Source of the DNA: Gemmatimonadales bacterium
Lineage (GTDB): Bacteria > Gemmatimonadota > Gemmatimonadetes > Gemmatimonadales > GWC2-71-9
Direction of reading: 5' to 3'
NCBI GenBank assembly: GCA_039794085.1
Contig: JBDIWC010000056.1
Span: 1 to 22,469, forward strand
DNA length: 22,469 nucleotides
Shown piece after piece: positions 6,797-22,469 of the stretch. Numbering within the stretch: position 1 is the stretch's first letter; each line of letters begins with the position of its first letter. The notes under the pieces are model-generated. The model was not told the origin of the DNA, searched no databases, and was given only the letters and a program-made list of their open reading frames with translations. Both the position numbers and the translations under genes were made by a program.

Positions 6797-8113
6797 TCAG
6801 GGTGTCGTGGCGGTGGCGGAGAAGGCGGTAAGGAGCGAGGTGCCGGGAAGGGATGCCAGCACGGCCTGCACTCCCGCCACCGGACCCAGGGTCCAGTCCA
6901 CCCGGGCAAACCCAAGCGGATCGGTGAAGGTGACCGATTCGGACAGGGAGCCCCCGCCGCTCAGGACCTGCCACTCCACCCGCACGTTGGGAATCGCATT
7001 GCCGAACTGGTCCAGGACTCGAGCCGAGAGCGGCCCCGGCAAGGTCTGGCCCATGAGGCCGGTCTGCTGGTCCCCCGAAAATCGATCGAGGGCAAAGGGG
7101 AGACCCGGGAGCGCGCTGATCGTGAGGCGCGCCGGAGGGAGCCCCGGAACTTCCGCCGTGAACACCTGGTTGCCGACCAAAGTGCCGAGACGCCCCCCGG
7201 TTCGGGCAATCCCCCCCGGGCCGGTGATGACGGTTCCCTGGTTGACCACCCCACCGGCGGGTGGGAAGAAGTTGACCCGGACACCGGGGACTCCCAGGTT
7301 GTCGCTCGCGAGGACCTGAACCGTGAAGTCCTCGGGGAGCGCTGTTCCGACCTGGGCGGATCGCCCGCCGTTGCTGAGAACGGTGACGGCAGTCGGGGCC
7401 GGGGCGAAGGAGACGACCGTCGAATCACGAGCTCCGGAGGGCGTGGTGACCCGCAGGAGGACGCTTCCCCGCTGGGAGGGCGCCTGGACCTCGCCAATCA
7501 GGGAGACGGGTGCGAGCACGGGATTGCTGGACTCCCAGCTAAGGTACACTGGCGGATCGACCACGATTCCGCCCGTGGAGGCGAGCACACTGAAGCCAAA
7601 CCCCGATCCGAGGGAGAGCACGGTGTCCCGGGGCAGGATCAACAAGTCGGTGATATCCTGCCCCGGGCCGACGAAGTCCACGGGGATTGCCGCCACCGGG
7701 AAGACGTTGATGCCCTCCGCCACTTCGATTCTCTGCTTTCCGGTGAAGAGAAGAAGATCGTCGTCGAACAGGTCGAGCGTGGCATCGAGTTGCTCGGTGG
7801 CGGCCCGCAGGGGGATGGCCACGCGGAGAGCGATCCGGTTCGAGTCGGCGGGGAAGACGATGACGGTGTCGACCAGGGTTTCCAAGGGGAGCCGGACCAG
7901 CCGGAACCGGACCCGATCCACCACCAGGTTGGTGAAGGCCTTGAAGTTGATGTCGGGCGCAAAGGACGGCTGGATGGCGAGGGAGGCCTGTTTGCCCGCG
8001 GGTCCGGTGCCACCGCCATCTCCGCACCCGGACGCGGTGAGCCACCCGGCCACCAGCGCCACACGCCAGAGCCGTCGCCTGCGGGACGAAGGACTTCCCA
8101 TCCGAGCTTTCAT
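6797..8113 (-). CDS. Putative lipoprotein with Ig-like (Big_2/Big_1) domains
   Basis: Arg-rich n-region, hydrophobic stretch, then TASG|C. Contains WESSNP and two invasin-like repeats (VQVLASDNLGVPGVRVNF...T..GG.A; ARVLDQFGNAIPNVRVEW...TDPLGFA). Start uncertain (8125/8113/8101). Confidence 0.7.
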   Translation of the reverse strand: MKARMGSPSSRRRRLWRVALVAGWLTASGCGDGGGTGPAGKQASLAIQPSFAPDINFKAFTNLVVDRVRFRLVRLPLETLVDTVIVFPADSNRIALRVAIPLRAATEQLDATLDLFDDDLLLFTGKQRIEVAEGINVFPVAAIPVDFVGPGQDITDLLILPRDTVLSLGSGFGFSVLASTGGIVVDPPVYLSWESSNPVLAPVSLIGEVQAPSQRGSVLLRVTTPSGARDSTVVSFAPAPTAVTVLSNGGRSAQVGTALPEDFTVQVLASDNLGVPGVRVNFFPPAGGVVNQGTVITGPGGIARTGGRLGTLVGNQVFTAEVPGLPPARLTISALPGLPFALDRFSGDQQTGLMGQTLPGPLSARVLDQFGNAIPNVRVEWQVLSGGGSLSESVTFTDPLGFARVDWTLGPVAGVQAVLASLPGTSLLTAFSATATTP

Positions 8114-8256
8114 GGGAGGAATCATAGGATGATACCCGGTGTGCGGGGAGTGGCCTGCGTCACAAACCGGACAATTCCCTCGGAAGGATGGGGCGTCTTC
8201 CGCAGGAAAACGGAGGCGCTGGGCAGCGATAAGATCATCTCGTGCAATGGTTTGGC

Positions 8257-10720: not shown

Positions 10721-12214
10721 TCAGAAATTCGGACCCCGATCAGTGCACTGGGCCTGGTTGCCCCGGGCCGGGCCCGCGGTTTCCACCCGATGCATCTCCG
10801 CCCGTCGGTTGGCCTGCTTCCCTTCCTCGGTGTCGTTGGACGCCCGGGGATTGCACTCGCCGTACCACCGGAGTTCGATACGCCCGGCGTCGATGCCCTG
10901 CTCCAGGAGCCAGGTTTTGACCGCTTCGGCCCGACGGCGGGACAAGTCGGCGTTGGACGCTGCGCGTCCCGTCCAATCGGTGTGACCCTCGACGACCACC
11001 CGGACCTCAGGGTTGGCCCGCAGCGCCTCCACCACCGATTCGAGCGAGTCGCGATCGGTGGGACGGAAGATCTGCGCCCGGTTGCTCTGGAACAGGGCCC
11101 CGGGGAGGATGATGGTGTCCCGGACGACAGGGGCCGGGCGATAGATCTCGATCGACGCGTTGGCGCTCCTCCCGTCCCGCGTGGCGGTGACCTGGTAGGT
11201 GCCCGGGGTCTGACCGGCGGTGTAGTTGCCGTCGGCCACGGTGCCACCCTGTCCGGACCAGGTGAATCCAGTTGTCTGGGTGGTTCCGTCGGTGAAATGC
11301 GCGGTGGCGACAAACCGGGCGCTCTCGCCGGGCCGGAGCCGGGCGGAGGCGGGAGCGAGGGCGACCCGCTCCACCACGTTCGGGCGAACCGTCACCGTGC
11401 CGCGGGCCAGGTGCTTCCCATGCGTCGCCGTCACGGGGAAGCTGCCGGCCGCAGTGCCCGCGGTGAAGAACCCGTCACTCGTCATGGTGCCGCCCTGGGC
11501 GTCGAAGCCGACCACCGGGGCACGAAGCTGCCGGCTCTGGCCATCGCACTGGAGCCCGGTGACGGTGAACTGCTGGGTCTGGCCCGGCTGCAGGGTGACT
11601 GTGGCCGGGGTGACCCAGATGCTGTCGATCCGGGTGGTGCACTTGTCCTTGAAGATCAGGCTGAGCCCCGCCTGGGCTCCCAGTGTCGTGTTGTCGCTCG
11701 CATCATTGGCGGGATCCGGCACGTAATCCACCAGGCCATCCACCCGCACCGACAACGGCCCCAGGAGCCCGACGCGGAGACCCACCAGGCCCCCGACCCC
11801 GACATCCGTCCCGTCGAACCCGGCGATCGCCTCGTCCTTGGTGTAGAAGTTGACCCCCGGACCACCGCCAATCAGAAGGTGGACCCGGTCGCTGCCGAGC
11901 GGGGCATGGTAGATGGCGCGCAGGTGAAAGGGGACAAAATCGATGGGGCGGCTCCGAGAACCCAATCCAAAAAAATCATTCTGGTCGGTCGCGTTGTAGG
12001 ACCCGTCGAGTTCCAGGGAGAAGTTCTTGAGGATGAACCACCCAAGCCGACCGCCCGCTCCCCAACTGTTCTCGGTTTTCGATCCCCGGTCGAACGAGTC
12101 GTCGTAGTCGGTGAAGCGAGCGAATCCACCCAGTTCGATGGCGCCCTTCTGCTGAGAATGGACGGCGGGGGTGGCCACCAGCATGGCCAAGCCGACGAGA
12201 AAGAGTTTACGCAT
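10721..12214 (-). CDS. OmpA-family outer membrane protein: beta-barrel + two Ig-like (Big_2) domains + OmpA C-terminal peptidoglycan-binding domain
   Basis: Signal peptide MRKLFLVGLAMLVATPAVHS with AGGAG RBS. Barrel ends at QAGLSLIF. VTPATVTLQPGQTQQFTV and LAPASARLRPGESARFVA repeats. VEGHTD, LSRRRAEAV, YGE.NP.ASN and NRR motifs. Confidence 0.88.
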   Translation of the reverse strand: MRKLFLVGLAMLVATPAVHSQQKGAIELGGFARFTDYDDSFDRGSKTENSWGAGGRLGWFILKNFSLELDGSYNATDQNDFFGLGSRSRPIDFVPFHLRAIYHAPLGSDRVHLLIGGGPGVNFYTKDEAIAGFDGTDVGVGGLVGLRVGLLGPLSVRVDGLVDYVPDPANDASDNTTLGAQAGLSLIFKDKCTTRIDSIWVTPATVTLQPGQTQQFTVTGLQCDGQSRQLRAPVVGFDAQGGTMTSDGFFTAGTAAGSFPVTATHGKHLARGTVTVRPNVVERVALAPASARLRPGESARFVATAHFTDGTTQTTGFTWSGQGGTVADGNYTAGQTPGTYQVTATRDGRSANASIEIYRPAPVVRDTIILPGALFQSNRAQIFRPTDRDSLESVVEALRANPEVRVVVEGHTDWTGRAASNADLSRRRAEAVKTWLLEQGIDAGRIELRWYGECNPRASNDTEEGKQANRRAEMHRVETAGPARGNQAQCTDRGPNF

Positions 12215-12453
12215 CCGACACGCTCCTTTGGAAGTAGTCGCACATTCAGCCACCAAACCTGCATTCAGCGGCACACCCCGGGCTACTCAACTGTCCAAGG
12301 CGTGACACTGACCCATGGTTCCAAGATCTACCCGCAGGCCTGAAACGCAAGTCGGGTAGCAACTTGGGGCATATACGGCCGGTTGCGGGAAGAAGTTCCC
12401 TCCTGCGATGGTCTGAGGTGGTGGCGGGGACGGGGCTTGCGTTCGAACCGCGA

Positions 12454-12471
12454 TGTGCATATTTATTCATG
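12454..12471 (+). promoter_or_regulatory. ARG box (ArgR operator) overlapping the putative -10 region and the argG start
   Basis: tgTGCATATTTATTCAtg matches the consensus nnTGMATAWWWATKCAnn. It is an AT-rich island in GC-rich DNA at the head of an operon that ends in argR. A candidate -35 TTGCGT lies at 12437-12442. Confidence 0.85.
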
Positions 12472-13659
12472 ATGCACAAATCGATCGTTCTCGCCTTCTC
12501 TGGAGGCCTCGATACCTCCTACTGCGTACCCCGCCTCGCGGAGCGGGGGTTCGCCGTTCACACCGCCTTCGTGGACACCGGCGGGTCCACGGCCGCCGAT
12601 CGGGAGGCGATTCGAGTCCAGGCCCGGGCGGCCGGTGCAGTGGAGCATCACGAGGTGGACGCCCGGGCGGCGGTGTTTGACCGGTTTGTCCGCTTCCTGA
12701 TTCAGGGGAACGTTCTCCGGGGAGGGGTCTATCCCCTGTCCGTCGCCGCGGAACGCACCCAGCAGGCGATTTCGGTGGTCGAGGTGGCGCGGCAGGTCGG
12801 GGCCGGGGCCGTGGCCCACGGTTCCACGGGGGCGGGCAACGACCAGATCCGGTTCGACATCGCCTTTCGCGTCCTCGCCGCCGACCTGGAGATCGTCACC
12901 CCGATTCGCGAGGAGGCGATGACCCGGGACCGGGCCATTGCCTACCTGGAGGCGCGGGGAATCCCGGTGCCCCCCAGGTCCGGGGCCTATTCGATCAATC
13001 GGGGCCTCTGGGGCACGACCTGGGGTGGAGGCTGGACCCACGACACCTGGGCCGGTCCTCCCGAGGAACTGCTGACGGTTCCGGCCGGCGAGTCCGACGT
13101 CGAGGAACACGTGGTGCGGTGGGACGAGGGCGTTCCCATGGCGCTGGACGAGGTGGCCCTGCCGGGCGCGGACCTCGTGGCGTCCCTGGCCACCCTCACG
13201 GACCGGTTCGGCATCGGCCGGGCCATCCACATGGGTGAAACCACACTCGGCATCAAGGGCAGGATAGGGTTCGAGGCGGGACCGGCTCTGGTCCTGATTG
13301 CCGCGCACCGGGAACTGGAAAAGCTGGTCCTCACCAAGTGGCAGGCCTTCTGGAAGGACCAGCTCGGGCAGTTCTATGGAGACCGTCTCCATGAAGGGCA
13401 CTATTTCGACCCGGCCCTCCGGGACATCGAGGCGCTCCTCTCCAGCAGCCAGCGCCGGGTCACGGGCGAGACCCGGATCCGGTGCGCTCCGGGACGGTTC
13501 CTGGTCACCGGGGCGCGAAGCCCGCACTCCATGATGGATCCGTCGGTGGCCACCTATGGGGAGGAACACACCCTCTGGACGGGGGAGGAGGCCCGGGGCT
13601 TCGCGCGGGTCGGAGCCATCCCCTCGCTTCTCGCGGCGCGCACGGAGGAACCCCGATGA
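12469..13659 (+). CDS. argG: Argininosuccinate synthase
   Basis: VLAFSGGLDTS, YPLSV, AHGSTGAGNDQIRF, YSINRGLWG and GIKGRIGFEA. Start at ATG 12469 or 12472. Confidence 0.96.
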   Translation: MMHKSIVLAFSGGLDTSYCVPRLAERGFAVHTAFVDTGGSTAADREAIRVQARAAGAVEHHEVDARAAVFDRFVRFLIQGNVLRGGVYPLSVAAERTQQAISVVEVARQVGAGAVAHGSTGAGNDQIRFDIAFRVLAADLEIVTPIREEAMTRDRAIAYLEARGIPVPPRSGAYSINRGLWGTTWGGGWTHDTWAGPPEELLTVPAGESDVEEHVVRWDEGVPMALDEVALPGADLVASLATLTDRFGIGRAIHMGETTLGIKGRIGFEAGPALVLIAAHRELEKLVLTKWQAFWKDQLGQFYGDRLHEGHYFDPALRDIEALLSSSQRRVTGETRIRCAPGRFLVTGARSPHSMMDPSVATYGEEHTLWTGEEARGFARVGAIPSLLAARTEEPR

Positions 13660-14771
13660 TGCTCACCAGTCGCGTTCGTCTCGACCGCATCGCCTCGTCC
13701 ACGCGGAATGCGCATCTCACCCCGGATGTGATCGTCGGAGACGAGATCGTCTCCGCGGAGGGGTACCTCCTTGCGGTCCGGATCGCGTCGGACAAGGCGG
13801 CCTACAACACGGTCGAGGATCCCACGGGTCGCATGGTCACTCTGCGCGCGGGAGACATCCTCGCCGGGACCCTCGGGAGCCGCCGTGCCCTCCGCGGGTA
13901 CGCCGGCGAGGTGCCCTCCACCCTCGCCGTGGGCGACACGATCGACGTGCTCAACCTGGGCGGAATCCTGGGCCGCTGCATCTCGGTGAATCCCGACATC
14001 GGTCCCCCCTTCCAGGCGGAAGTGCTCGGCGCGATCCTGGCTTTCCCCGACCTGGGCGACCGGATCGGTCGCCCCGCCACCATCCGGGATCATGCGGTGC
14101 CGGTCGCCGAGGCGATCGAGATCCCCGTGCCGGTGGTCTATGTGGCGGGAACCTGCATGAACTCCGGAAAGACGGTGGCGGCCACCGAACTGGTCCGGGG
14201 ATTGACCCGTGCCGGGTACCGGGTGGGCGCGGTGAAACTGACCGGCGTGTCGCTCATGCGGGACACCCTCAGCATGATGGACGCGGGAGCCGTGGCCGCG
14301 CTCACCTTCAACGATGCCGGGGCGGCCAGCACCCATGCCGGGATGACGGTGCCGGTGGCGCGCGGCCTCTTCAACCGACTCACCACCAGCAAGGGCGTGG
14401 GGGCGGGTCAGCGTCCCGATGTCATCCTGGCCGAGCTGGGAGATGGCATCCTCGGTGAGTACGGGGTGCAGGACATTCTCCGGGCCCCCGACCTGATGGG
14501 CCTTGCGGCGGCGCACATTGTCGCCGCTCCCGACCCCGTCGGATGCTGGGGTGCGCGGGAACTCTTCCAGCACGTGTACGGACTCTCGATCACCGCGATC
14601 ACCGGGCCCGCCACCGACAACGCCGTCGGTCGCGACTACATCACGGCTCAGCTCGGCGTGCCATCCGCCAACGCGCGCCGCGAGCCGGAGGCCCTGACCC
14701 GCATCGTGCTCGATGCCCTCGAGGCGTGGCGTCCCCCGTCTCCTTCCCCCCATTCCCGGGCCACGGCGTGA
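13656..14771 (+). CDS. Uncharacterised P-loop protein (DUF1611/DgcN-like), candidate N-acylglutamate synthase (orfX)
   Basis: 371 aa, coupled to argG (ATGA) and argC (GTGA). Has the Walker-A-like GTCMNSGKT, KLTG...RD and the Walker-B-like VILAELGDG. Confidence is for the CDS; the family assignment is from motif recall and the function is inferred. Confidence 0.85.
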   Translation: MMLTSRVRLDRIASSTRNAHLTPDVIVGDEIVSAEGYLLAVRIASDKAAYNTVEDPTGRMVTLRAGDILAGTLGSRRALRGYAGEVPSTLAVGDTIDVLNLGGILGRCISVNPDIGPPFQAEVLGAILAFPDLGDRIGRPATIRDHAVPVAEAIEIPVPVVYVAGTCMNSGKTVAATELVRGLTRAGYRVGAVKLTGVSLMRDTLSMMDAGAVAALTFNDAGAASTHAGMTVPVARGLFNRLTTSKGVGAGQRPDVILAELGDGILGEYGVQDILRAPDLMGLAAAHIVAAPDPVGCWGARELFQHVYGLSITAITGPATDNAVGRDYITAQLGVPSANARREPEALTRIVLDALEAWRPPSPSPHSRATA

Positions 14772-15796
14772 AGGTCGCCGTGGTCGGGGCGGCGGGATAC
14801 GCTGGCGGGGAGTTGCTCCGGCTGGTCCTGGGGCATCCCGATGTGTCGGAATGTGTCGCCACGAGCCGGAGCCAGGCCGGCAAGCCGCTGGCCGCGGTGC
14901 ACCCGGGGATCGTCGGCATGAGCGACGCCCGCTTCGCCGGCCTCACTCCCGGTGAGGCGTCCCGTGGCGCCGACGTTGTCTTTCTTGCCCTGGAGCATGG
15001 GGAATCCTCGCGGGTGGCGGGGGAGGTCCTGGACGCCGGGCCGGGGCTCGTCATCGACCTCGCGGCCGACTTCCGGATTCACGACGGCCGGTTGCACGAG
15101 CGATTTTACGGTTCGCACCCCGCTCCCGCCCTCGTCCACCACTTTCGCTACGGGCTCGCCGACGTCCTCGGCACCGCGCTGCACGGGGCCCGGGCCATCG
15201 CCGCCCCGGGGTGCTTCGCCACGGCGGCGCAGCTGGCACTGTACCCATTGCGGGAGATTCCTCTCGCCGCGCCCCCCGCGCTCTTTGCCATCACGGGATC
15301 GAGCGGGGCGGGGGTCTCCCCCCGCGCCACGACCCACCACCCGGCCCGGGCGCACAATCTCTTCGCCTACGGCGTCATGGGTCATCGACATGAGGGAGAG
15401 GTGCTCGAGCAGTGGCGGGCCTGGACCGGAAACCCCGCGGGGCATGCCCGGCTCCTGGCGCACGCCGGTCCCTTCGTCCGGGGCATCGCCCTGACGCTGC
15501 ATGCCACACTGCGTGAGGCCGAGGGTGATGCGGCGGTGGAGGCGGTGCGCCGTGCCTGGGAGGGACGTCCGGGGGTGCGCGTGGGGGAGTCTCCCCCCGA
15601 GCTGGCCCATGTCGTGGGCTCCAACATCGCCCTCGTCTCCGCGGCCACCAGCGAGGACCGCCGGGAAGTCCAGATCATGGTGGCCATCGACAACCTGATC
15701 AAGGGGGCCGGGGGGCAGGCGCTCCAGGACATGAACCTGGCTCTTGGGTTGCCCGAAATGGCCGGACTCCAGTTCACCACGCCTTTCCCCATCTGA
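14768..15796 (+). CDS. argC: N-acetyl(acyl)-gamma-glutamyl-phosphate reductase
   Basis: VKVAVVGAAGYAGGEL, DLAADFR, PGCFATA (catalytic Cys), GSSGAG, HRH and DNLIKGAGGQA. Confidence 0.95.
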   Translation: MKVAVVGAAGYAGGELLRLVLGHPDVSECVATSRSQAGKPLAAVHPGIVGMSDARFAGLTPGEASRGADVVFLALEHGESSRVAGEVLDAGPGLVIDLAADFRIHDGRLHERFYGSHPAPALVHHFRYGLADVLGTALHGARAIAAPGCFATAAQLALYPLREIPLAAPPALFAITGSSGAGVSPRATTHHPARAHNLFAYGVMGHRHEGEVLEQWRAWTGNPAGHARLLAHAGPFVRGIALTLHATLREAEGDAAVEAVRRAWEGRPGVRVGESPPELAHVVGSNIALVSAATSEDRREVQIMVAIDNLIKGAGGQALQDMNLALGLPEMAGLQFTTPFPI

Positions 15797-15810: not shown

Positions 15811-16956
15811 ATGCCCGAAACCAGCTCCGCGCTTCTCTCGGTGTACAAGCCGATGCCGCTCCGCGCGGTGGCCGGCGAGGGATCGTGGATCATCGACGAC
15901 CAGGGCCACCGCTGGCTCGACGCCTACGGGGGGCACGCGGTCGCCTCCACCGGTCACTCGCACCCCACAGTGGTGCAGGCCATCTGCGACCAGGCCCGCT
16001 CCCTCCTCTTCTATTCCACCGCGGTGCCCCACCGGGGACGCGAAGCCCTCGCCGAGGCGCTGGCGGACCGGTGCCCGGGCAACCTGTCGCGGGTCTTCTT
16101 CTGCAACTCCGGCGCGGAAGCGAACGAGAATGCGATCGGACTGGCCCGGCGCTTCACCGGCCGTCAGACCATCGTGACGCTGCGCGGCGGATGGCATGGG
16201 CGCACGCTGGCGGCGGTGACCTGCACCGACGGGGCCCGGTACGAGGAAACCGCCGCCCGCGCCGGCGCCCCGGTGTCCCGCAAGGTGGAGTTCAATGACA
16301 TCCCGGCGCTCCACGCCGCGATGGATGACTCGGTGGCCGCGGTTCTTCTCGAACCGGTGCAGGGGCTGCAGGGCGCCCGCGCCTGCCTCACGGAGTTTCT
16401 CCAGTCCGCTCGTGATCTCTGTGACCGCACCGGATCCCTCCTGATCTTCGACGAGATCCAGTGCGGGGTGGGTCGCTGCGATGCCTTCACCGCCGCGGAG
16501 GCGTTCGGAGTGACTCCGGACATTCTGACGTTGGCCAAGGGACTCGCCTCGGGCCTGCCAGTCGGGGCGATGGTGACGACGCCGCGCGTCGCCTCGGTGC
16601 TCCAGTTCGGTGACCTGGGCAGCACCTTCGGGGGTGGTCCGGTCCCGATGGCGGCGGCTCTGGCCACCCTGAGGGTGATCGAGGAGGAGAATCTGATCGC
16701 CAATGCCACCACGGTGGGGCATCACCTGCGCGAGAGCGCCCTGGCCCTCGGTGTCGAAGCGGTGGAGGGGAGGGGGCTTCTCCTCGGGCTGCGACTGGCA
16801 CGGCCGGCGGTGGAGGTTCAGCAGGCGTTGTTCGGCCACCGGGTTCTCACGGGGACCTCCTCGGACCCCCGGGTCCTGCGGCTGATGCCTCCGCTCTCCT
16901 TTTCCCTCGTCGAGGCGGATCTGGTGCTCGAGGCTCTTCGGGAGGTTCTCACATGA
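15811..16956 (+). CDS. argD: Acetyl/succinyl-ornithine aminotransferase (class III PLP)
   Basis: FCNSGAEANE, WHGRT, EPVQG, DEIQCGVGR, TLAKGLASG and STFGGGP. Confidence 0.93.
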   Translation: MPETSSALLSVYKPMPLRAVAGEGSWIIDDQGHRWLDAYGGHAVASTGHSHPTVVQAICDQARSLLFYSTAVPHRGREALAEALADRCPGNLSRVFFCNSGAEANENAIGLARRFTGRQTIVTLRGGWHGRTLAAVTCTDGARYEETAARAGAPVSRKVEFNDIPALHAAMDDSVAAVLLEPVQGLQGARACLTEFLQSARDLCDRTGSLLIFDEIQCGVGRCDAFTAAEAFGVTPDILTLAKGLASGLPVGAMVTTPRVASVLQFGDLGSTFGGGPVPMAAALATLRVIEEENLIANATTVGHHLRESALALGVEAVEGRGLLLGLRLARPAVEVQQALFGHRVLTGTSSDPRVLRLMPPLSFSLVEADLVLEALREVLT

Positions 16957-17966
16957 CCAAACGCGATTTCCTGGCGATGGAGGACTGGAGTCCGGAGGAG
17001 ATCACCGCGCTTCTCGACCTCGCGGACCGCGTGAAGCGGGGCGAGATCACCGGCGGACTGGAGCGGCAGGTTCTCGCCATGGTGTTCCTCGACCCGAGCC
17101 TCCGGACGCGGAGCAGCTTCGAGACTGCGATGTTTCTGCACGGGGGGCACGCGGTGATCCTCGAACCGGGCAAGGGGAGCTGGGCGATGGAAACCGAGGT
17201 GGGCGTGGTGATGGACGGGAGCTCGGTGGAGCACATCATCGAGGCGGCCCGCGTCCTGGGCCGGTACGCCCAGGCCCTGGCGGTCCGGAGCTTCCCCAAG
17301 GGGAGCGACTGGGCGGTGGAACGGCTCGATCCCGTCATCCACAACTTTGCCCGCTACTGCGAGAAACCAGTCATCAATCTTGAATCGTCGAGGCGGCACC
17401 CCTGCCAGGGCCTGGCCGATGCCCAGACCATTCGGGAACGCCTGGGCCAGCCCCGGGGCCGCAAGTTCGTTCTGAGTTGGGCATGGCATCCGAAGGCACT
17501 TCCCACCGCGGTTCCCGCCAGTGCGGCGATCGCCGCCGCCCAGCTCGGCATGGAGATCGTGGTGGCCCGGCCCGAGGGGTACGATCTCGACCCCGACGAC
17601 ATGATGGCCATCCGGACCCTCGCCGAAGGGCAGGGAGGATCGGTCACGGTGACCGACGATCAGGCGGAGGCGGTGGCGGGAGCGGATGTGGTCTACGTGA
17701 AGGCCTGGGGATCCCTCGGGGCGTTCGGCCAGCCGGAACGGGAGCAGGCGCTGCGGAATCCGCATCGGGAGTGGCGGATGACGGACGCCCTGGCCCGGAC
17801 CACCCGGAGCGGACGGGGGATCGTGATGCACTGCCTTCCGGTCCGGCGGAACGTGGAGATTGACGATGCCGTTCTCGACGGGCCGAACTCGGTGGTGGTG
17901 GACCAGGCGGAGAACCGCCTGCATGCGCAGCGTGCCCTGTTGTTGACCCTGTTCGGAAAGAGCTGA
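16953..17966 (+). CDS. argF': N-acylornithine transcarbamylase (ArgF'; AOTCase/SOTCase family, predicted succinyl-specific)
   Basis: SLRTR, W.ME..G.VMDG...EH, HPCQ, WAWHPKALPTAV and HCLPVRRN identify the AOTCase/SOTCase clade rather than OTCase. Confidence 0.92.
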   Translation: MTKRDFLAMEDWSPEEITALLDLADRVKRGEITGGLERQVLAMVFLDPSLRTRSSFETAMFLHGGHAVILEPGKGSWAMETEVGVVMDGSSVEHIIEAARVLGRYAQALAVRSFPKGSDWAVERLDPVIHNFARYCEKPVINLESSRRHPCQGLADAQTIRERLGQPRGRKFVLSWAWHPKALPTAVPASAAIAAAQLGMEIVVARPEGYDLDPDDMMAIRTLAEGQGGSVTVTDDQAEAVAGADVVYVKAWGSLGAFGQPEREQALRNPHREWRMTDALARTTRSGRGIVMHCLPVRRNVEIDDAVLDGPNSVVVDQAENRLHAQRALLLTLFGKS

Positions 17967-17969
17967 TCC

Positions 17970-18908
17970 GTGATGACGATTGATACCTCCAAGGGAATTG
18001 CCGGCCTGAAGGGCGCACTGCGGTACGTGCGGGCCTATCGAGACAATGTGTTCGTGGTGAAACTCGGGGGGGATGTTCTCCGGGACTCCGAAGTGCTCGA
18101 CCAGGTGGCCGGGCAGATCTCCCTGCTGAGCTCGCTCGGGATCCAGATCGTGGTGGTGCATGGGGGTGGTCCCCAGGCGAGCGCGCTGATCACCCGGCTC
18201 GGCGGAGAGCCCCGGATGGTGGCGGGGAGGCGCGTCACGGATGACGCCGCCCTCGAGGTGGTGAAGATGGTCTACGCCGGCACCCTCAACACCGACCTGG
18301 TGGCGGCCCTCCGCTCCCATCAGCTCCAGGCGGTTGGCCTCACGGGTGTGGATGGGGATCTCCTCCACGCTCATCGGCGGCCGCCGGTGTCGGTGGTGGA
18401 CGACACCGGGACCACCCGGGAGGTGGACTATGGTCATGTGGGCGACATCGACACGGTCGATCCCCGCGTGGTCCGCACCCTGCTCGGGGCCCGCTTCGTG
18501 CCGGTGGTGGCGAGTCTCGCGGGGGACGAGGAGGGCAACGTCTACAATGTCAACGCCGATACGGTGGCGGAACATCTCGCCATCGCGCTGCGGGCCCAGA
18601 AACTCATCTACCTGACCGGCGTGCCGGGGGTGCTGCGGGATCGGACCGACCCCAGCAGTCTCATCACCTTCGCCGATCCCGACGACCTGGCCGGCCTGAT
18701 GGCGAGTGGCGCCCTGGCGGGTGGCATGCGCCCCAAGGTGGAGGCCTGCATCCGGGCCGCCACCGGCGGGGTGGAACGGACCCACATCATCGACGGCCGG
18801 GCCCCCGACGCCCTGCTGTTCGAGGTGTTCACCGGGGCCGGGTACGGCACGATGATCGTGGGCCGAAAGGAAAAGGCGACCTATCTTGGCGTTGACCTGG
18901 CCGACTGA
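17970..18908 (+). CDS. argB: N-acetyl(acyl)glutamate kinase
   Basis: VVKLGG, VVHGGGPQ, GRRVTD, NVNADT, GGMRPKV, HIIDGR and EVFT..GYGT. Start at GTG 17970 or ATG 17973. Confidence 0.95.
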   Translation: MMTIDTSKGIAGLKGALRYVRAYRDNVFVVKLGGDVLRDSEVLDQVAGQISLLSSLGIQIVVVHGGGPQASALITRLGGEPRMVAGRRVTDDAALEVVKMVYAGTLNTDLVAALRSHQLQAVGLTGVDGDLLHAHRRPPVSVVDDTGTTREVDYGHVGDIDTVDPRVVRTLLGARFVPVVASLAGDEEGNVYNVNADTVAEHLAIALRAQKLIYLTGVPGVLRDRTDPSSLITFADPDDLAGLMASGALAGGMRPKVEACIRAATGGVERTHIIDGRAPDALLFEVFTGAGYGTMIVGRKEKATYLGVDLAD

Positions 18909-19959
18909 GATCGCGCTTCTGCGGGAGCTGGTGGCCACCCCCTCCGTCAGCGGCGAGGAGGAGGCGGTGGCCCGGCTCGTGGAATCCACGTCCCGGGCCT
19001 GGGGGCTCGATGTACTCCGGGACGACGTGGGCGTCACGGTGGAGGTCAGCGGGCGCACGGACGGCCCGACCCTGGCGCTCATCTCCCATCTCGACGTGGT
19101 GCCCCCGGGCGATGGGTGGACCCGCGATCCCTTCATTCCGGTCGTCGAGGGAAACCTCCTCTACGGGCGCGGCTCCGGCGACGCCAAGGCCTCGGTCGCC
19201 GCGATGCTCACCGCCGCCCGGGACGTGGCCTCCTCCGGAGGCCCGGCGCGCGGCCGGTTGCGCTGCGTCTTCGGCTTCGGCGAGGAGACCCGGAACACCT
19301 CGATGCCGCACCTGCTCAACCGGGTGGGCACGGTGCATGCCGCGGTGGTGGGCGAGCCAACCAACCTGCACTTTGCGGTGGCCCAGCGGGGACTGATGAT
19401 GGTCGACCTGGTGGCCCAGGGGGACCAGCGTCACGCGGGCTACGCCTCCGAGGGCGGATTCGCCAACGCCATCGAACGCCTTGCCACCGATCTCCTCCGG
19501 CTCCCCGGCATGGCGGCCGAGCGCGAGCACCCGATCCTGGGCCACACCACCGTCACCCCCACGATGCTCGACGCCGGAGTGAGCCGCAACGTCACCCCCC
19601 CGCGTGCCCGGGCGGTCCTCGACATCCGAAGCACTCCCTCCTGGACTCACGAGGAACTGGCGGCTCTCCTGACCCACCGACTCGATTCCGAGGTGGTTGT
19701 CACGTCGACCCGGCTGGTGCCCTGCGAAACCCCCGCCGATTCGACCCTGCTCCCCGTGGCACAGCGCATCCGGCCCGAGGGTCGCTGCTTTGGCAGCCCC
19801 ACCTGTTCCGACTGGGTGTTCGTCCGGGATCTCGACACCATCAAGTGCGGCCCCGGCACCAGCCGCCGCTCCCACACCCCCGACGAATGCGTCGACCTCC
19901 CCGAGGTGTCGGCCGCGCGCGGGTTCTACGCCTCCCTCGCACGGGAGTACCTCGCATGA
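18886..19959 (+). CDS. argE: M20-family deacylase (N-acetyl/succinyl-citrulline or -ornithine deacylase)
   Basis: SHLDVV, GRGSGDAK, GEE, GEPT and HTPDE metal-binding motifs. The TTG start overlaps the argB end; exact start uncertain. Confidence 0.88.
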   Translation: MALTWPTEIALLRELVATPSVSGEEEAVARLVESTSRAWGLDVLRDDVGVTVEVSGRTDGPTLALISHLDVVPPGDGWTRDPFIPVVEGNLLYGRGSGDAKASVAAMLTAARDVASSGGPARGRLRCVFGFGEETRNTSMPHLLNRVGTVHAAVVGEPTNLHFAVAQRGLMMVDLVAQGDQRHAGYASEGGFANAIERLATDLLRLPGMAAEREHPILGHTTVTPTMLDAGVSRNVTPPRARAVLDIRSTPSWTHEELAALLTHRLDSEVVVTSTRLVPCETPADSTLLPVAQRIRPEGRCFGSPTCSDWVFVRDLDTIKCGPGTSRRSHTPDECVDLPEVSAARGFYASLAREYLA

Positions 19960-21353
19960 CTCCCCGACCACCCGCGGACGTGCCGCGGACCCTCTGGCTC
20001 AGCGACCCCGCGGCCCTCGACCGCGAGATGCTCGCCTACACCGTGGGCGACGACCCGGTCTGGGACTCCCGGCTGCTGCGATGGGACATCCTCGGAAGTC
20101 TCGGCCACGTGGAGGGACTCCGCGCGGCACGACTTCTCAGCGTCCGGGAGCATGCCCGGCTCCGGCGCGGGCTGCGGGAGGCGCTACGGGCCGCGGAGGA
20201 GGGGTCGCTCGTCATCGAACCGGGGCATGAGGATGTCCACTCCGCCGTCGAGGATTGGCTGACCCGGCGGCTGGGCAACGACGGGGCCCGGGTGCACACC
20301 GGGCGATCCCGCAACGATCAGGTGGCCTGCGATCTCCGGCTCCATCTCAAGGATACCCTGCTCGGTCTCCAGGAATCGGCCCTGCTCTTCGCGGAGGCTC
20401 TGGTCCGGTTTGCCGGGGTTCACGCGCGAACCCTCTGGCCCGGTTACACCCACCTGCGCCGCGCGATGCCCTCCTCGGCCGGACTCTGGGCCGGGGCCTT
20501 CGCGGAGGGGATCCTCGACAGCGTGGAGGCGCTCCCCGCCCTGTGGCACCGGGTGGACCGATCCCCGCTGGGCAGCGCCGCGGGATACGGAGTCCCGTTG
20601 CCGCTCAAACGCGAGAGGGTGGCGCGGGCCCTGGGATTCGGCGGGATCGACCACAATGTGGCCTCGGTGCAGAATGGGCGGGGGAAGTTGGAGGCCGCCG
20701 TACTCTTCTGGTGTGTGGAGCTGGCACACGACCTGTCGCGGTACGCCACCGACGTGATCCTGCTGAGTTCGGAGGAGTTTGGTCTGCTGCAGCTCCCGCC
20801 GGCCCTGGCCACCGGGTCCAGCATCATGCCGCACAAGCGGAACCCCGACCTCTTCGAGTTGACCCGCGCCCGTGCCGCGGCCCTGGAGGGGGACCTGGTG
20901 ACGATCCTGCAACTCAAGGCCAAACTCACCAGCGGATATCACCGGGACTTCCAGCTGTTGAAGGAGCCGCTTTTCCGCGGCCTCGACCGGACCGGACAGA
21001 TGCTCCGGATGATGGCCGCGACTCCGGGCCGGCTCGAGGTGGACCGGGATCGCGCCCGCGCCGCACTGGAGGGCGGGGTGCTCGCCACGGACGAGGTAAT
21101 GCGCCGAGTCGAGGAAGGAACCCCCTTCAGGCATGCATATCAGGATGTGGCCCGTGCTCTCAAGGCGGGCGAGTCGGTGCGCGCTCCGCACCCCGGGGAG
21201 ATCCTGGGCCGGCGAACCTCGACGGGGGGCGTGGGAAATCCCGGGCTGCCCGAGCTGCGGGCCCGGGTGCGTGCGGCTCGCCGGTGGGCCGCCGGAGAGA
21301 GACGACGGTTCGCCCGGGCCCTGGACCGTCTGGCGGGAACCGCCACCCGGTGA
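19956..21353 (+). CDS. argH: Argininosuccinate lyase
   Basis: EDVH, HTGRSRNDQV, PGYTHL, SPLGSAAG, GSSIMPHKRNPD and GYHRD. ATG 19956 overlaps the argE stop. Confidence 0.96.
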   Translation: MTPRPPADVPRTLWLSDPAALDREMLAYTVGDDPVWDSRLLRWDILGSLGHVEGLRAARLLSVREHARLRRGLREALRAAEEGSLVIEPGHEDVHSAVEDWLTRRLGNDGARVHTGRSRNDQVACDLRLHLKDTLLGLQESALLFAEALVRFAGVHARTLWPGYTHLRRAMPSSAGLWAGAFAEGILDSVEALPALWHRVDRSPLGSAAGYGVPLPLKRERVARALGFGGIDHNVASVQNGRGKLEAAVLFWCVELAHDLSRYATDVILLSSEEFGLLQLPPALATGSSIMPHKRNPDLFELTRARAAALEGDLVTILQLKAKLTSGYHRDFQLLKEPLFRGLDRTGQMLRMMAATPGRLEVDRDRARAALEGGVLATDEVMRRVEEGTPFRHAYQDVARALKAGESVRAPHPGEILGRRTSTGGVGNPGLPELRARVRAARRWAAGERRRFARALDRLAGTATR

Positions 21354-21802
21354 AACGAGATCTGCGGCAGCGCCGGCTCCGGATCCTGGAACTCATCACC
21401 ACCCGGGCCATCCACACCCAGGACGAGCTGGTGGAGGTGCTCGGCCAGGAGGGATGGGATGTCACCCAGCCCTCCGTGAGCCGGGACATCGCCGCCCTGC
21501 GTCTGATCAAGGTGGAGGGAGTCTATCAGCGTCCTCCCCTGAGCATCGATGCTCCCGCCGACCAGGACGAACTGCGGATCGCGGAGAGTGTCCTCACGGT
21601 GGACACCGCCGGGGAGGCGCTCCTGGTGCTCCACACGCCACCGGGGGAGGCCAACCGGGCCGGCATCGCCCTCGATCGCCTGGCCTGGCCCGAGATACTC
21701 GGCACCATCGCCGGGGATGACACCATCTTCGTCGCCGTCCCCCATCGCCGGGCTCAACGGGATCTTCTCGATCGGCTCCGGGCTCTGGTACCGGAGGGTT
21801 GA
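21350..21802 (+). CDS. argR: Arginine repressor
   Basis: TQDEL, VTQPSVSRDI (winged helix) and GTIAGDDTIFV. GTG start overlaps the argH stop. Confidence 0.95.
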   Translation: MKRDLRQRRLRILELITTRAIHTQDELVEVLGQEGWDVTQPSVSRDIAALRLIKVEGVYQRPPLSIDAPADQDELRIAESVLTVDTAGEALLVLHTPPGEANRAGIALDRLAWPEILGTIAGDDTIFVAVPHRRAQRDLLDRLRALVPEG

Positions 21803-21825: not shown

Positions 21826-21857
21826 CGTACACGTACACGTACACGTACTCGTACACG
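21826..21857. repeat. Hexamer tandem repeat (CGTACA)x5, one copy CGTACT
   Basis: cgtaca cgtaca cgtaca cgtact cgtaca cg read directly from the sequence. Confidence 0.9.
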
Positions 21858-21878: not shown

Positions 21879-22469
21879 AAACCACTGATGACGCAGATGA
21901 CGCAGAGGGTTGACGGTTATCCACGACCGCTCCCCGTCTCGGACCCGGGGATCAGCAATGAGGTGACCCCACCACCCACCCCCCCACCCCCCAACAACAA
22001 AACCGCAATCTCGGCGCGCAAGGCGTGGAGCGATGGTAGTGATCCCTACCCCACCCCGGATTGAACCACAGAGGGCGCTGAGGACGCAGAGGGTTGACGG
22101 TATCCACGACCCGCTCCCCGTCCCGGACCCCGGGCATCGGCAGGATGGGGGCCCTTCCCCCCCCAACAATGAGTTCCGGATCTCAGCGCGCGAGGCGTGG
22201 AGCGCCGGGGATCGTGCGGAGACCCTCCGCGACCTCCGCGTTCTCTGCGGTGATCCCTTCCCCCAACCCAAGTTGAACCACGGAGAGCACGGAGGACACA
22301 GAGGGTGGACGGCTCCCACGACAGGTCCCCGATCTCGGATGGCGGGCATCGGCAGGATGGGGGCCCTTCCCCCCCCAACAATGAGTTCCGGATCTCAGCG
22401 CGCGAGGCGTGGAGCGCCGGGGATCGTGCGGAGACCCTCCGCGACCTCCGCGTTCTCTGCGGTGATCCC
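21879..22469. repeat. Tandem array of about 3 composite repeat units (period 212 bp for units 2-3) with imperfect ~30-bp terminal inverted repeats
   Basis: Units start near 21879, 22063 and 22275 with AACCAC...GCAGAGGGT-like sequence. 22131-22257 is identical to 22343-22469 (127 bp). 22065-22094 is the reverse complement of 22222-22251 at 24/30 positions. Confidence 0.9.

What the first reader, a model, noticed from the sequence alone, without database searches (positions are those of the whole stretch)
16953..17966. ArgF' has Val92 and Pro at the Asn185 position, predicting an N-succinylated arginine pathway
Seen: residues 84-94 are GVVMDGSSVEH, with Val92 encoded by GTG at 17226-17228. The downstream motifs are HPKALP and RRNVE. 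Known (recalled): Xanthomonas campestris AOTCase has GTVMDGDTEEH, where Glu92 sets acetyl specificity. E92V/P/S/A substitutions convert it into an N-succinylornithine transcarbamylase, and Bacteroides fragilis SOTCase has Pro there. AOTCase also has Asn185 and Lys302, whereas this protein has Pro and Glu. Inference: the enzyme is a SOTCase, so ArgB, C, D and E here would act on succinylated intermediates. That route is characterised mainly in Bacteroidota, and automated annotation would probably call this gene AOTCase or OTCase.
Basis: partly seen in the sequence, partly recalled or inferred. Interest (0 to 1): 0.8.

Follow-up and report, generated by a model that had tools for sequence, protein, structure and literature searches.

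The report
Succinyl-type arginine operon in Gemmatimonadales
An arginine-synthesis operon of a Gemmatimonadales bacterium encodes a carbamoyltransferase with all three residues that mark the succinyl-using form, so it likely makes arginine through succinylated intermediates, likely started by an untested neighbouring P-loop protein whose family a 2026 preprint already predicted for that job.

Summary
Observation confirmed. Val92, Pro184 and Glu302 align with X. campestris Glu92, Asn185 and Lys302; Val92 also aligns with B. fragilis Pro90. All three fit the published SOTCase signature and are invariant in 79-80 relatives. NCBIfam would name the protein AOTCase. The gene lies in argG-X-argC-argD-argF'-argB-argE-argH-argR; the genome shows no argJ or argA. 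X (13656-14771) is a P-loop protein found upstream of argC in 65 of 65 related loci. It never co-occurs with ArgJ in 151 phylum genomes (47 vs 49, overlap 0). It is the likely N-succinylglutamate-forming enzyme. Neither idea is new: the GapMind 2026 preprint predicts both for a Steroidobacter protein of apparently this family, and this scan met X in 14 other genomes. Added here: the Gemmatimonadales case, the ArgJ exclusion, an ArgE unlike the Xanthomonas deacetylase, and signs that X may be an ATP-dependent ligase (dethiobiotin-synthetase-like residues; N-terminal beta-domain without a clear solved match). Nothing was assayed. Interest 0.4.

The parts
12456..12469 (.). ARG-box-like palindrome abutting the argG start codon; predicted ArgR operator
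   Evidence: Only site in the 4.16-Mb genome for the strict pattern used (2 strand hits, one site printed); similar motif upstream of argG in 28 of 59 related loci by the strict pattern, 43 of 59 by a looser one. The label 'ARG box' is recalled.
12469..13659 (+). argG, argininosuccinate synthase
   Evidence: TIGR00032 272.3 bits, over cut-off 268.2
13656..14771 (+). Gene X: 371-aa protein, N-terminal beta-domain plus C-terminal P-loop domain; candidate N-succinylglutamate-forming enzyme in place of ArgA/ArgJ
   Evidence: Only weak MobB/DUF1611 Pfam hits, below cut-off; upstream of argC in 65 of 65 loci that reach that far, median identity 71.7%; fold matches DUF1611 proteins, dethiobiotin synthetase and DgcN; exclusive with ArgJ
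14768..15796 (+). argC, N-acyl-glutamyl-phosphate reductase
   Evidence: TIGR01850 302.1 bits, over cut-off
15811..16956 (+). argD, N-acylornithine aminotransferase
   Evidence: best hits PRK03244/TIGR00707, below their cut-offs; operon position
16953..17966 (+). argF', knotted-type carbamoyltransferase with the SOTCase signature (the finding)
17226..17228 (+). Val92 codon (X. campestris Glu92, B. fragilis Pro90)
17502..17504 (+). Pro184 codon (X. campestris Asn185, B. fragilis Pro181)
17856..17858 (+). Glu302 codon (X. campestris Lys302)
17970..18908 (+). argB, N-acylglutamate kinase, no GNAT domain fused
   Evidence: TIGR00761 232.4 bits, over cut-off; 312 aa; matches only the kinase part of ArgA models
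18886..19959 (+). argE', M20 deacylase; predicted N-succinylcitrulline desuccinylase
   Evidence: best solved relative 3CT9 at 162.3 bits vs 28.9 for the acetylcitrulline deacetylase 2F7V
19956..21353 (+). argH, argininosuccinate lyase
   Evidence: TIGR00838 291.3 bits, over cut-off
21350..21802 (+). argR, arginine repressor
   Evidence: Pfam Arg_repressor and Arg_repressor_C over cut-off

Best explanation
The gene encodes a knotted-type carbamoyltransferase with the three signature residues of N-succinylornithine transcarbamylase, inside a nine-gene arginine operon that likely runs on succinylated intermediates and is likely started by the adjacent P-loop protein. Proposed route: X attaches succinyl to glutamate (inferred); ArgB, ArgC and ArgD make N-succinylornithine (inferred); ArgF' carbamoylates it, Val92 leaving room for the succinyl carboxylate that Glu92 would repel, with His179, Lys181 and Arg298 placed like the B. 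fragilis anchors (register shown, binding inferred); ArgE' removes the succinyl group from N-succinylcitrulline (inferred); ArgG and ArgH finish; ArgR would repress at the single ARG-box-like site. My odds: ArgF' prefers N-succinylornithine 0.87; X supplies the first step 0.8; if so, ATP-dependent ligase about 0.5, succinyl-CoA transferase about 0.4.
For: Signature: three of three residues match the rule in PMC4581275; E92 to A/P/S/V is reported to switch specificity (preprint passage citing Shi 2007). Invariant in 79-80 Gemmatimonadales loci; 43 of 43 ArgF' beside X homologues of a Steroidobacteraceae-labelled clade have Ala92 and Pro. Genes overlap or abut: five of eight junctions overlap by 4 nt. 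ArgE' scores 162 bits on 3CT9 vs 29 on the acetylcitrulline deacetylase 2F7V. Genome is 94.7% complete, with no ArgJ (controls ring in 10 of 14), no ArgA over cut-off, no LysX over cut-off, CarB present. In 151 phylum genomes: knotted ArgF' at E<1e-100 in 41, close X in 40 of these, close X without ArgF' in 0; ArgJ in 49, overlap with the 47 X carriers 0. In the window's family, 61 of 73 genomes have argC, and these are exactly the 41 with X plus the 20 with ArgJ (lists compared by eye). One X-ArgB fusion, P0223.
Against: No assay. The protein is much closer overall to the acetyl enzyme of Xanthomonas (311 bits) than to B. fragilis SOTCase (177 bits). His179, Lys181 and Arg298 are also present in the Xanthomonas acetyl enzyme, so they do not discriminate, and position 181 is Lys where B. 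fragilis has Arg. The genome also has an unknotted OTC (C21:56389-57282) and ten GNAT proteins, any of which could be an unrecognised ArgA. Seven genomes carry a 44-46% X in argR-X-argC-argD-argB operons with no knotted ArgF' found, so X does not by itself imply succinyl. The genomes are kin, so the exclusion with ArgJ reflects few independent events. 23 of 118 argC genomes have neither X nor ArgJ (by-eye count). That 3CT9 is the B. thetaiotaomicron desuccinylase candidate BT3549 is recalled; one search names it only 'Acetylornithine deacetylase'.
Confidence: 0.8

Rival explanations
1. The enzyme is an acetyl-specific or dual-specific transcarbamylase, and the pathway in the cell uses acetylated intermediates as in Xanthomonas.
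For: Closest solved relative and NCBIfam family are AOTCase. The one characterised fold relative of X with an acyl-transfer activity, DgcN, is an acetyltransferase (title of 7xrj). Val is the bulkiest of the permissive residues (general knowledge).
Against: None of the three AOTCase residues is kept. Glu never appears at position 92 in 79 + 43 relatives. E92V is one of the reported switch mutants. ArgE' is unlike the acetylcitrulline deacetylase.
Confidence: 0.1
2. The protecting group is another dicarboxylic or longer acyl group (for example glutaryl or malonyl) that the widened pocket accepts; X sets which one.
For: The signature only shows loss of the acetyl-selecting Glu. The first enzyme is of an untested family with an unmatched N-terminal domain. 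Arg178 of B. fragilis is Lys in 77 of 80 relatives.
Against: Only acetyl and succinyl are reported for these enzymes in the passages read. No gene for another acyl donor lies in the operon.
Confidence: 0.06
3. The succinyl pathway is right but X is not its first enzyme: a GNAT elsewhere acylates glutamate and X is accessory (regulator, deacylase helper or acyl recycler).
For: Ten GNAT genes in the genome. Bacteroides uses a separate synthase, BT3761. Steroidobacteraceae-clade loci show no ArgE' match in 80 of 80 (37 reach argH), so X could be filling that gap there.
Against: Here ArgE' is present in 72 of 72 loci that reach past argB, so the only empty slot is the first step. X and ArgJ are mutually exclusive. 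An X-ArgB fusion exists. Five of five X-carrying genomes tested that lack ArgE' have other ArgE-like M20 genes at 164-208 bits, below cut-off.
Confidence: 0.15

Closest known systems
N-succinylornithine transcarbamylase (SOTCase, ArgF') of Bacteroides fragilis, PDB 1JS1/2FG6/2FG7
   Same: Non-Glu at 92/90, Pro at 184/181, His179/176, Arg298/278, proline-rich loop and long 80s loop, place in an arginine cluster
   Different: Only 177 bits overall; Val for Pro90; Lys for Arg178; different phylum; first step not by a BT3761-type synthase in the operon
N-acetylornithine transcarbamylase (AOTCase) of Xanthomonas campestris and its E92V mutant, PDB 3KZC/3L06
   Same: Closest solved sequence (311-314 bits), same loops, Trp77, Glu144, Lys250/252, Arg298
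   Different: All three specificity residues are of the succinyl type; the natural protein resembles the engineered E92V chain plus Pro184 and Glu302
Predicted alternative N-succinylglutamate synthase ACG33_RS14135 of Steroidobacter denitrificans and its arg cluster (GapMind 2026 preprint, 10.1101/2024.10.14.618325, section 11 and Appendix 2)
   Same: Hypothetical protein in arg operons lacking ArgA, weak Foldseek likeness to DgcN 7XRJ (here E 1.8e-4, rmsd 5.7), neighbouring ArgF' with A/P/S/V at 92 (90% of 70 in the preprint). X is 42-43% identical to four proteins labelled Steroidobacteraceae, about a third of its self-score, and their operons have the same gene order
   Different: ACG33_RS14135 itself could not be fetched, so identity of family is indirect. 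'Gemmatimonad', 'P-loop' and 'DUF1611' have 0 hits in the main text (Figure S2 not seen). The preprint compared with ArgA, not ArgJ, and proposes no ATP-dependent mechanism in the passages read. The Gemmatimonadales operon has ArgE', which S. denitrificans lacks
DgcN / DUF1611 (D-glutamate N-acetyltransferase, PDB 7XRJ; 2OBN, 2G0T) and dethiobiotin synthetase BioD
   Same: C-terminal domain of X has this fold: Z 16.7 (2g0t, rmsd 2.9, 181 aligned), 16.5 (2obn), 15.5 and 15.3 (BioD), 15.1 (7xrj, rmsd 3.2, 184 aligned)
   Different: About 15% identity. The genome has a separate true DUF1611 gene. The N-terminal 152 residues of X model as a mostly beta domain (pLDDT 91) with best Z 3.6. X keeps GKT, a second Lys (194) and Glu260 that align with BioD

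Membership tests
SOTCase (ArgF', succinyl) | A/S/P/V/Q at X. campestris position 92 | tested here: met
   Val92 (rule)
SOTCase (ArgF', succinyl) | Pro at position 185 | tested here: met
   Pro184 = Asn185 = B. fragilis Pro181
SOTCase (ArgF', succinyl) | V/I/E at position 302 | tested here: met
   Glu302
SOTCase (ArgF', succinyl) | Knotted-group sequence marks: proline-rich loop, extended 80s and 120s loops, Trp in the 80s loop, Glu144 and Lys252 equivalents | tested here: met
   HPKALP, Trp77, Glu144, Lys250; loops are insertions against the genome's unknotted OTC. The knot itself was not modelled
SOTCase (ArgF', succinyl) | Succinyl anchors His176, Arg178, Arg278 | tested here: inconclusive
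   His179 and Arg298 kept, Lys181 for Arg178; the same three occur in the acetyl enzyme
SOTCase (ArgF', succinyl) | Gene in an arginine biosynthetic cluster, not beside carbamate kinase | tested here: met
SOTCase (ArgF', succinyl) | Activity on N-succinylornithine and not on ornithine or N-acetylornithine | not testable with these tools
   needs an assay
AOTCase (acetyl) | Glu92, Asn185, Lys302 | tested here: not met
   Val, Pro, Glu, although PRK04523 is passed at 417.6 bits
Unknotted OTCase | SMG motif in the 240s loop, short 80s loop, no proline-rich loop | tested here: not met
   VKAWGSLG here, WASMG in the genome's other OTC; TIGR00658 208 bits, below cut-off 280.85
Alternative ArgA family of ACG33_RS14135 (gene X) | [quoted passage not shown] | tested here: inconclusive
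   Reference protein not obtainable; 240-251 bits of a 732 self-score against four Steroidobacteraceae-labelled proteins
Alternative ArgA family of ACG33_RS14135 (gene X) | Located in arg operons lacking ArgA, near succinyl-type ArgF', remote fold likeness to 7XRJ | tested here: met
   seven more distant carriers lack knotted ArgF'
DUF1611 / DgcN (gene X) | Pfam PF07755 over cut-off | tested here: not met
   20.3 bits vs cut-off 25, over 62 residues
DUF1611 / DgcN (gene X) | Shared N-terminal domain | tested here: inconclusive
   No DUF1611 chain listed for the N-terminal model; best Z 3.6
LysW/ArgW carrier pathway | LysX/ArgX ligase in the genome | tested here: not met
   best 33.4 bits vs cut-off 275.6; LysW itself not searched

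The most novel reading that the evidence does not exclude
X is not a CoA transferase but an ATP-dependent succinate:glutamate amide ligase of the dethiobiotin-synthetase type, with a substrate-binding beta-domain that has no solved counterpart. That would be a new chemistry for the first step of arginine synthesis, coupled to a natural 'E92V' SOTCase that arose on the Xanthomonas-like scaffold. Run backwards (ADP + Pi), the same enzyme could strip the succinyl group in lineages whose operons lack ArgE, as the P-loop arginine synthetase ArcE conserves ATP. Basis: Gly171-Lys172, Lys194, Glu260 and Asp293 invariant in 68 of 68 homologues at 35% mean column identity, Thr173 in 67; they align with the P-loop Lys-Thr, second Lys and Glu of BioD (E 0.13; catalytic roles recalled); the genome's DUF1611 paralogue has Pro in the Lys194 column of a weak alignment.
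Probability: 0.3. Interest if true: 0.75.

Novelty: new member of a known kind. Interest (0 to 1): 0.4.

Why it matters
It extends the succinylated arginine route, worked out in Bacteroidota, to about a quarter of the Gemmatimonadota genomes sampled (41 of 151), where pipelines will call the enzyme AOTCase. The operon is compact and self-contained, with SOTCase-type ArgF', an ArgE' and the predicted alternative ArgA together, which makes it a better test case than Steroidobacter, where ArgE is missing. Reconstituting it would test the untested first enzyme and whether it uses ATP or succinyl-CoA. The prediction itself is already in a preprint, so the gain is a cleaner test and an added mechanism, not a new pathway.

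Tried and rejected
Register error (Glu93 as the Glu92 site): rejected. LysW-type route: no LysX. PF04768 search was blank but so were all 14 controls, so it shows nothing. Four apparent fusions of X with neighbours (P0248, P0296, P0297 with ArgC; P0298 with ArgG) contain out-of-frame-looking stretches and join adjacent genes; I dropped them as likely frameshift artefacts and kept only P0223. Dropped before counting 47 arg-type X carriers: G043 (36%, locus without arg genes), G018 and a second G029 hit (E about 1e-3). Ten genomes scoring 229-246 bits on the AOTCase model were looked at in six cases and are carbamoyltransferases of purine-catabolism-like clusters, not ArgF'. The idea that X must be an ArgJ-like recycler in genomes lacking ArgE' is not needed, since other ArgE-like genes exist there. 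Sequence searches of X against solved structures gave nothing significant; profile comparison with the DUF1611 paralogue gave probability 1.7%; plasmid search gave 9 records, all below 60% identity; no clear fold match for the N-terminal domain, which does not show a new fold. Promoter/terminator scan: nothing above shuffles. Literature: searches for 'DUF1611' (2 papers, listing only), 'DgcN'+'glutamate', Gemmatimonad + arginine biosynthesis + succinyl (1 paper, listing only), 'N-succinylcitrulline' (GapMind only), '3CT9' and BioD residues found no report of a SOTCase in Gemmatimonadota and no assay of the X family. Shi 2007, Yu 2023 and Morizono 2006 could not be read, and bioRxiv supplements and figures were not seen; Shi 2007 and Figure S2 of the preprint may list such genomes.

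Full report
Observation. The frame 16953-17966 encodes 337 aa. Val92, Pro184 and Glu302 lie at 17226, 17502 and 17856. The best solved relatives are eight X. campestris AOTCase sequences (310-314 bits), then B. fragilis SOTCase (177 bits). The alignment is ungapped across the 80s loop: Val92 sits on Glu92, and the top hit is the chain with Val there. Fragment searches place Val92 on B. fragilis Pro90 and His179/Lys181/Pro184 on His176/Arg178/Pro181; Arg298 corresponds to Arg278. The review PMC4581275 (passages seen) states that Glu92/Asn185/Lys302 mark AOTCase and A/S/P/V/Q, P and V/I/E mark SOTCase. All three are met. NCBIfam still names it AOTCase (417.6 vs 288).

Conservation. A scan of GTDB genomes gave 334 relatives; of the best 80, 78 are labelled Gemmatimonadota (one Bacillota and one Gammaproteobacteria MAG are the exceptions), the nearest at 98%. 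Val92 is in 79 of 79 with a residue, Pro184 in 80 of 80, Glu302 in 79 of 79 (one seed contained Glu302).

Context. The gene is the fifth of nine on one strand: argG, X, argC, argD, argF', argB, argE', argH, argR. Five of eight junctions overlap by 4 nt, one by 23 nt. A palindrome at 12456-12469 abuts the argG start and is the only such site in the genome by the strict pattern. The genome (94.7% complete) shows no ArgJ, no ArgA over cut-off, no LysX; it has CarB, ten GNATs and an unknotted OTC beside hslVU with no arg genes. ArgE' is closest to 3CT9 (162 bits) and far from the acetylcitrulline deacetylase 2F7V (29 bits). I recall 3CT9 as B. thetaiotaomicron BT3549, which GapMind 2020 (PMC7311316, passages seen) names as the desuccinylase candidate; no call confirmed that link.

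Gene X. It has only sub-threshold Pfam hits yet is upstream of argC in 65 of 65 loci that reach that far, at a median 71.7% identity, like the core enzymes. In 151 phylum genomes, 41 have this ArgF'; 40 of them have close X, and the exception (G125) has a 3.3-kb contig that starts in argD. ArgJ occurs in 49 genomes and X in 47, never together. In the window's family the 61 of 73 genomes with argC are exactly the 41 with X and the 20 with ArgJ. These genomes are kin, so this is a pattern, not a statistical test, and 23 of 118 argC genomes have neither. One homologue is fused to ArgB (P0223); four other fusions were dropped as likely artefacts. A model of X (pLDDT 78.9) matches DUF1611 proteins (Z 16.7, 16.5), dethiobiotin synthetase (15.5, 15.3) and DgcN (15.1) over the C-terminal domain. 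The N-terminal 152 residues model confidently as a mostly beta domain with no clear match. Gly171, Lys172, Lys194, Glu260 and Asp293 are invariant in 68 homologues, and Lys172-Thr173, Lys194 and Glu260 align with like residues of BioD (weak).

Results against a simple picture. Seven genomes have a 44-46% X in argR-X-argC-argD-argB operons, with no knotted ArgF', close ArgE' or ArgJ found; five tested have argG and other ArgE-like genes. So X also works with an unknotted OTC, and its acyl group there is unknown. In the Steroidobacteraceae-labelled clade (4 of 120 hits so named), 43 of 43 ArgF' have Ala92 and Pro, but Ala at 302 (41 of 43), outside the review's list, and 0 of 80 loci show ArgE'. 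The succinyl anchors do not discriminate, since the acetyl enzyme has them too.

Mechanism. Shown: gene content, register, conservation, co-occurrence. Inferred: succinyl specificity of ArgF' (0.87), succinylated substrates for ArgB, C, D and E', X as first enzyme (0.8), and its chemistry (ATP ligase about 0.5, succinyl-CoA transferase about 0.4). Route: glutamate, N-succinylglutamate, its phosphate and semialdehyde, N-succinylornithine, N-succinylcitrulline, citrulline, argininosuccinate, arginine. Precedent for a reversible ATP-forming enzyme related to cyclic 2,3-diphosphoglycerate synthase is ArcE (PMC11032458, passages seen); that synthase is among X's fold matches (Z 12.8).

Prior art. 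The GapMind 2026 preprint (section 11 and Appendix 2 seen as passages, outline seen; figures and supplements not seen) predicts that ACG33_RS14135 of Steroidobacter denitrificans, a remote DgcN relative, is an alternative N-succinylglutamate synthase, and reports A/P/S/V at position 92 in 90% of 70 neighbouring ArgF'. X appears to be of that family, though the reference protein could not be fetched. Earlier notes of this scan found X look-alikes in 14 genomes and one whole operon. Searches found no paper on a SOTCase in Gemmatimonadota. DgcN is known to me from PMC12363236 (passages), the preprint and a PDB title; PMC6022934 (passages) added nothing on distribution. Shi 2007, Yu 2023 and Morizono 2006 were not read.

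Verdict. Real, correctly read, and a new member of a known kind. Interest 0.4; the open prize is the chemistry of X.

Noticed in passing
window 12456-12469 and upstream of argG in L001-L080: Conserved ARG-box-like palindrome running straight into the argG start codon with no ribosome-binding site, which suggests a leaderless, ArgR-repressed transcript.
   Followed up: partly
L125, L126, L127, L129, L138-L140 (G057, G123, G039, G137, G075, G120, G139): argR-X-argC-argD-argB(-argG-argH) operons with a 44-46% X and no knotted ArgF', ArgE' or ArgJ found: X paired with an unknotted OTC, acyl group unknown.
   Followed up: partly
L154-L233: Steroidobacteraceae-clade operons argR-argG-X-argC-argD-argF'-argB-argH: same order as the window but no argE; ArgF' has Ala at position 302, outside the published V/I/E list. 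Shared order across phyla hints at horizontal transfer; no tree was built.
   Followed up: partly
L240-L245 (G108, G065, G023, G131, G071, G066): Shorter YgeW-like carbamoyltransferases (324-328 aa where called) beside genes that look like YgeY hydrolase, amidohydrolases and molybdenum enzymes: probable anaerobic purine-catabolism clusters in Gemmatimonadota, ten genomes by score; neighbours judged by eye.
   Followed up: partly
L131 (G118) and L132 (G019): argD is missing from the operon between argC and argF'; G141 and G133 show the same short spacing.
   Followed up: no
L031 4823-5614; L028, L075: Extra space inside the operon (about 790 nt before argF' in L031), possibly inserted genes.
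   Followed up: no
L081 (G000:C3:10500-11099): Canonical DUF1611/DgcN-like gene next to a PspA-like gene, separate from X.
   Followed up: partly
L136 (G000:C21:56389-57282): Unknotted OTC directly after xerC-hslV-hslU and before a gcvT-like gene; similar OTCs occur in most genomes of the phylum sample.
   Followed up: partly
L128 (G043) and plasmid hits H1-H9: More distant X relatives (25-36%, one short 49% piece) outside arg operons, some annotated DUF1611 or dethiobiotin synthase: a wider unnamed family of unknown function.
   Followed up: no
L009, L045: MAGs labelled Bacillota and Gammaproteobacteria carry the operon at Gemmatimonadales-level identity: mis-binning or transfer.
   Followed up: no
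window 21826-21857 and 22039-22469: (CGTACA)x5.3 just after argR and a two-copy 212-bp tandem repeat at the contig end.
   Followed up: no
window 10721-12274 (-) and 6797-8125 (-): Outer-membrane beta-barrel + Ig-like + OmpA domain protein, and a Big_1 Ig-domain protein; ordinary surface proteins.
   Followed up: no
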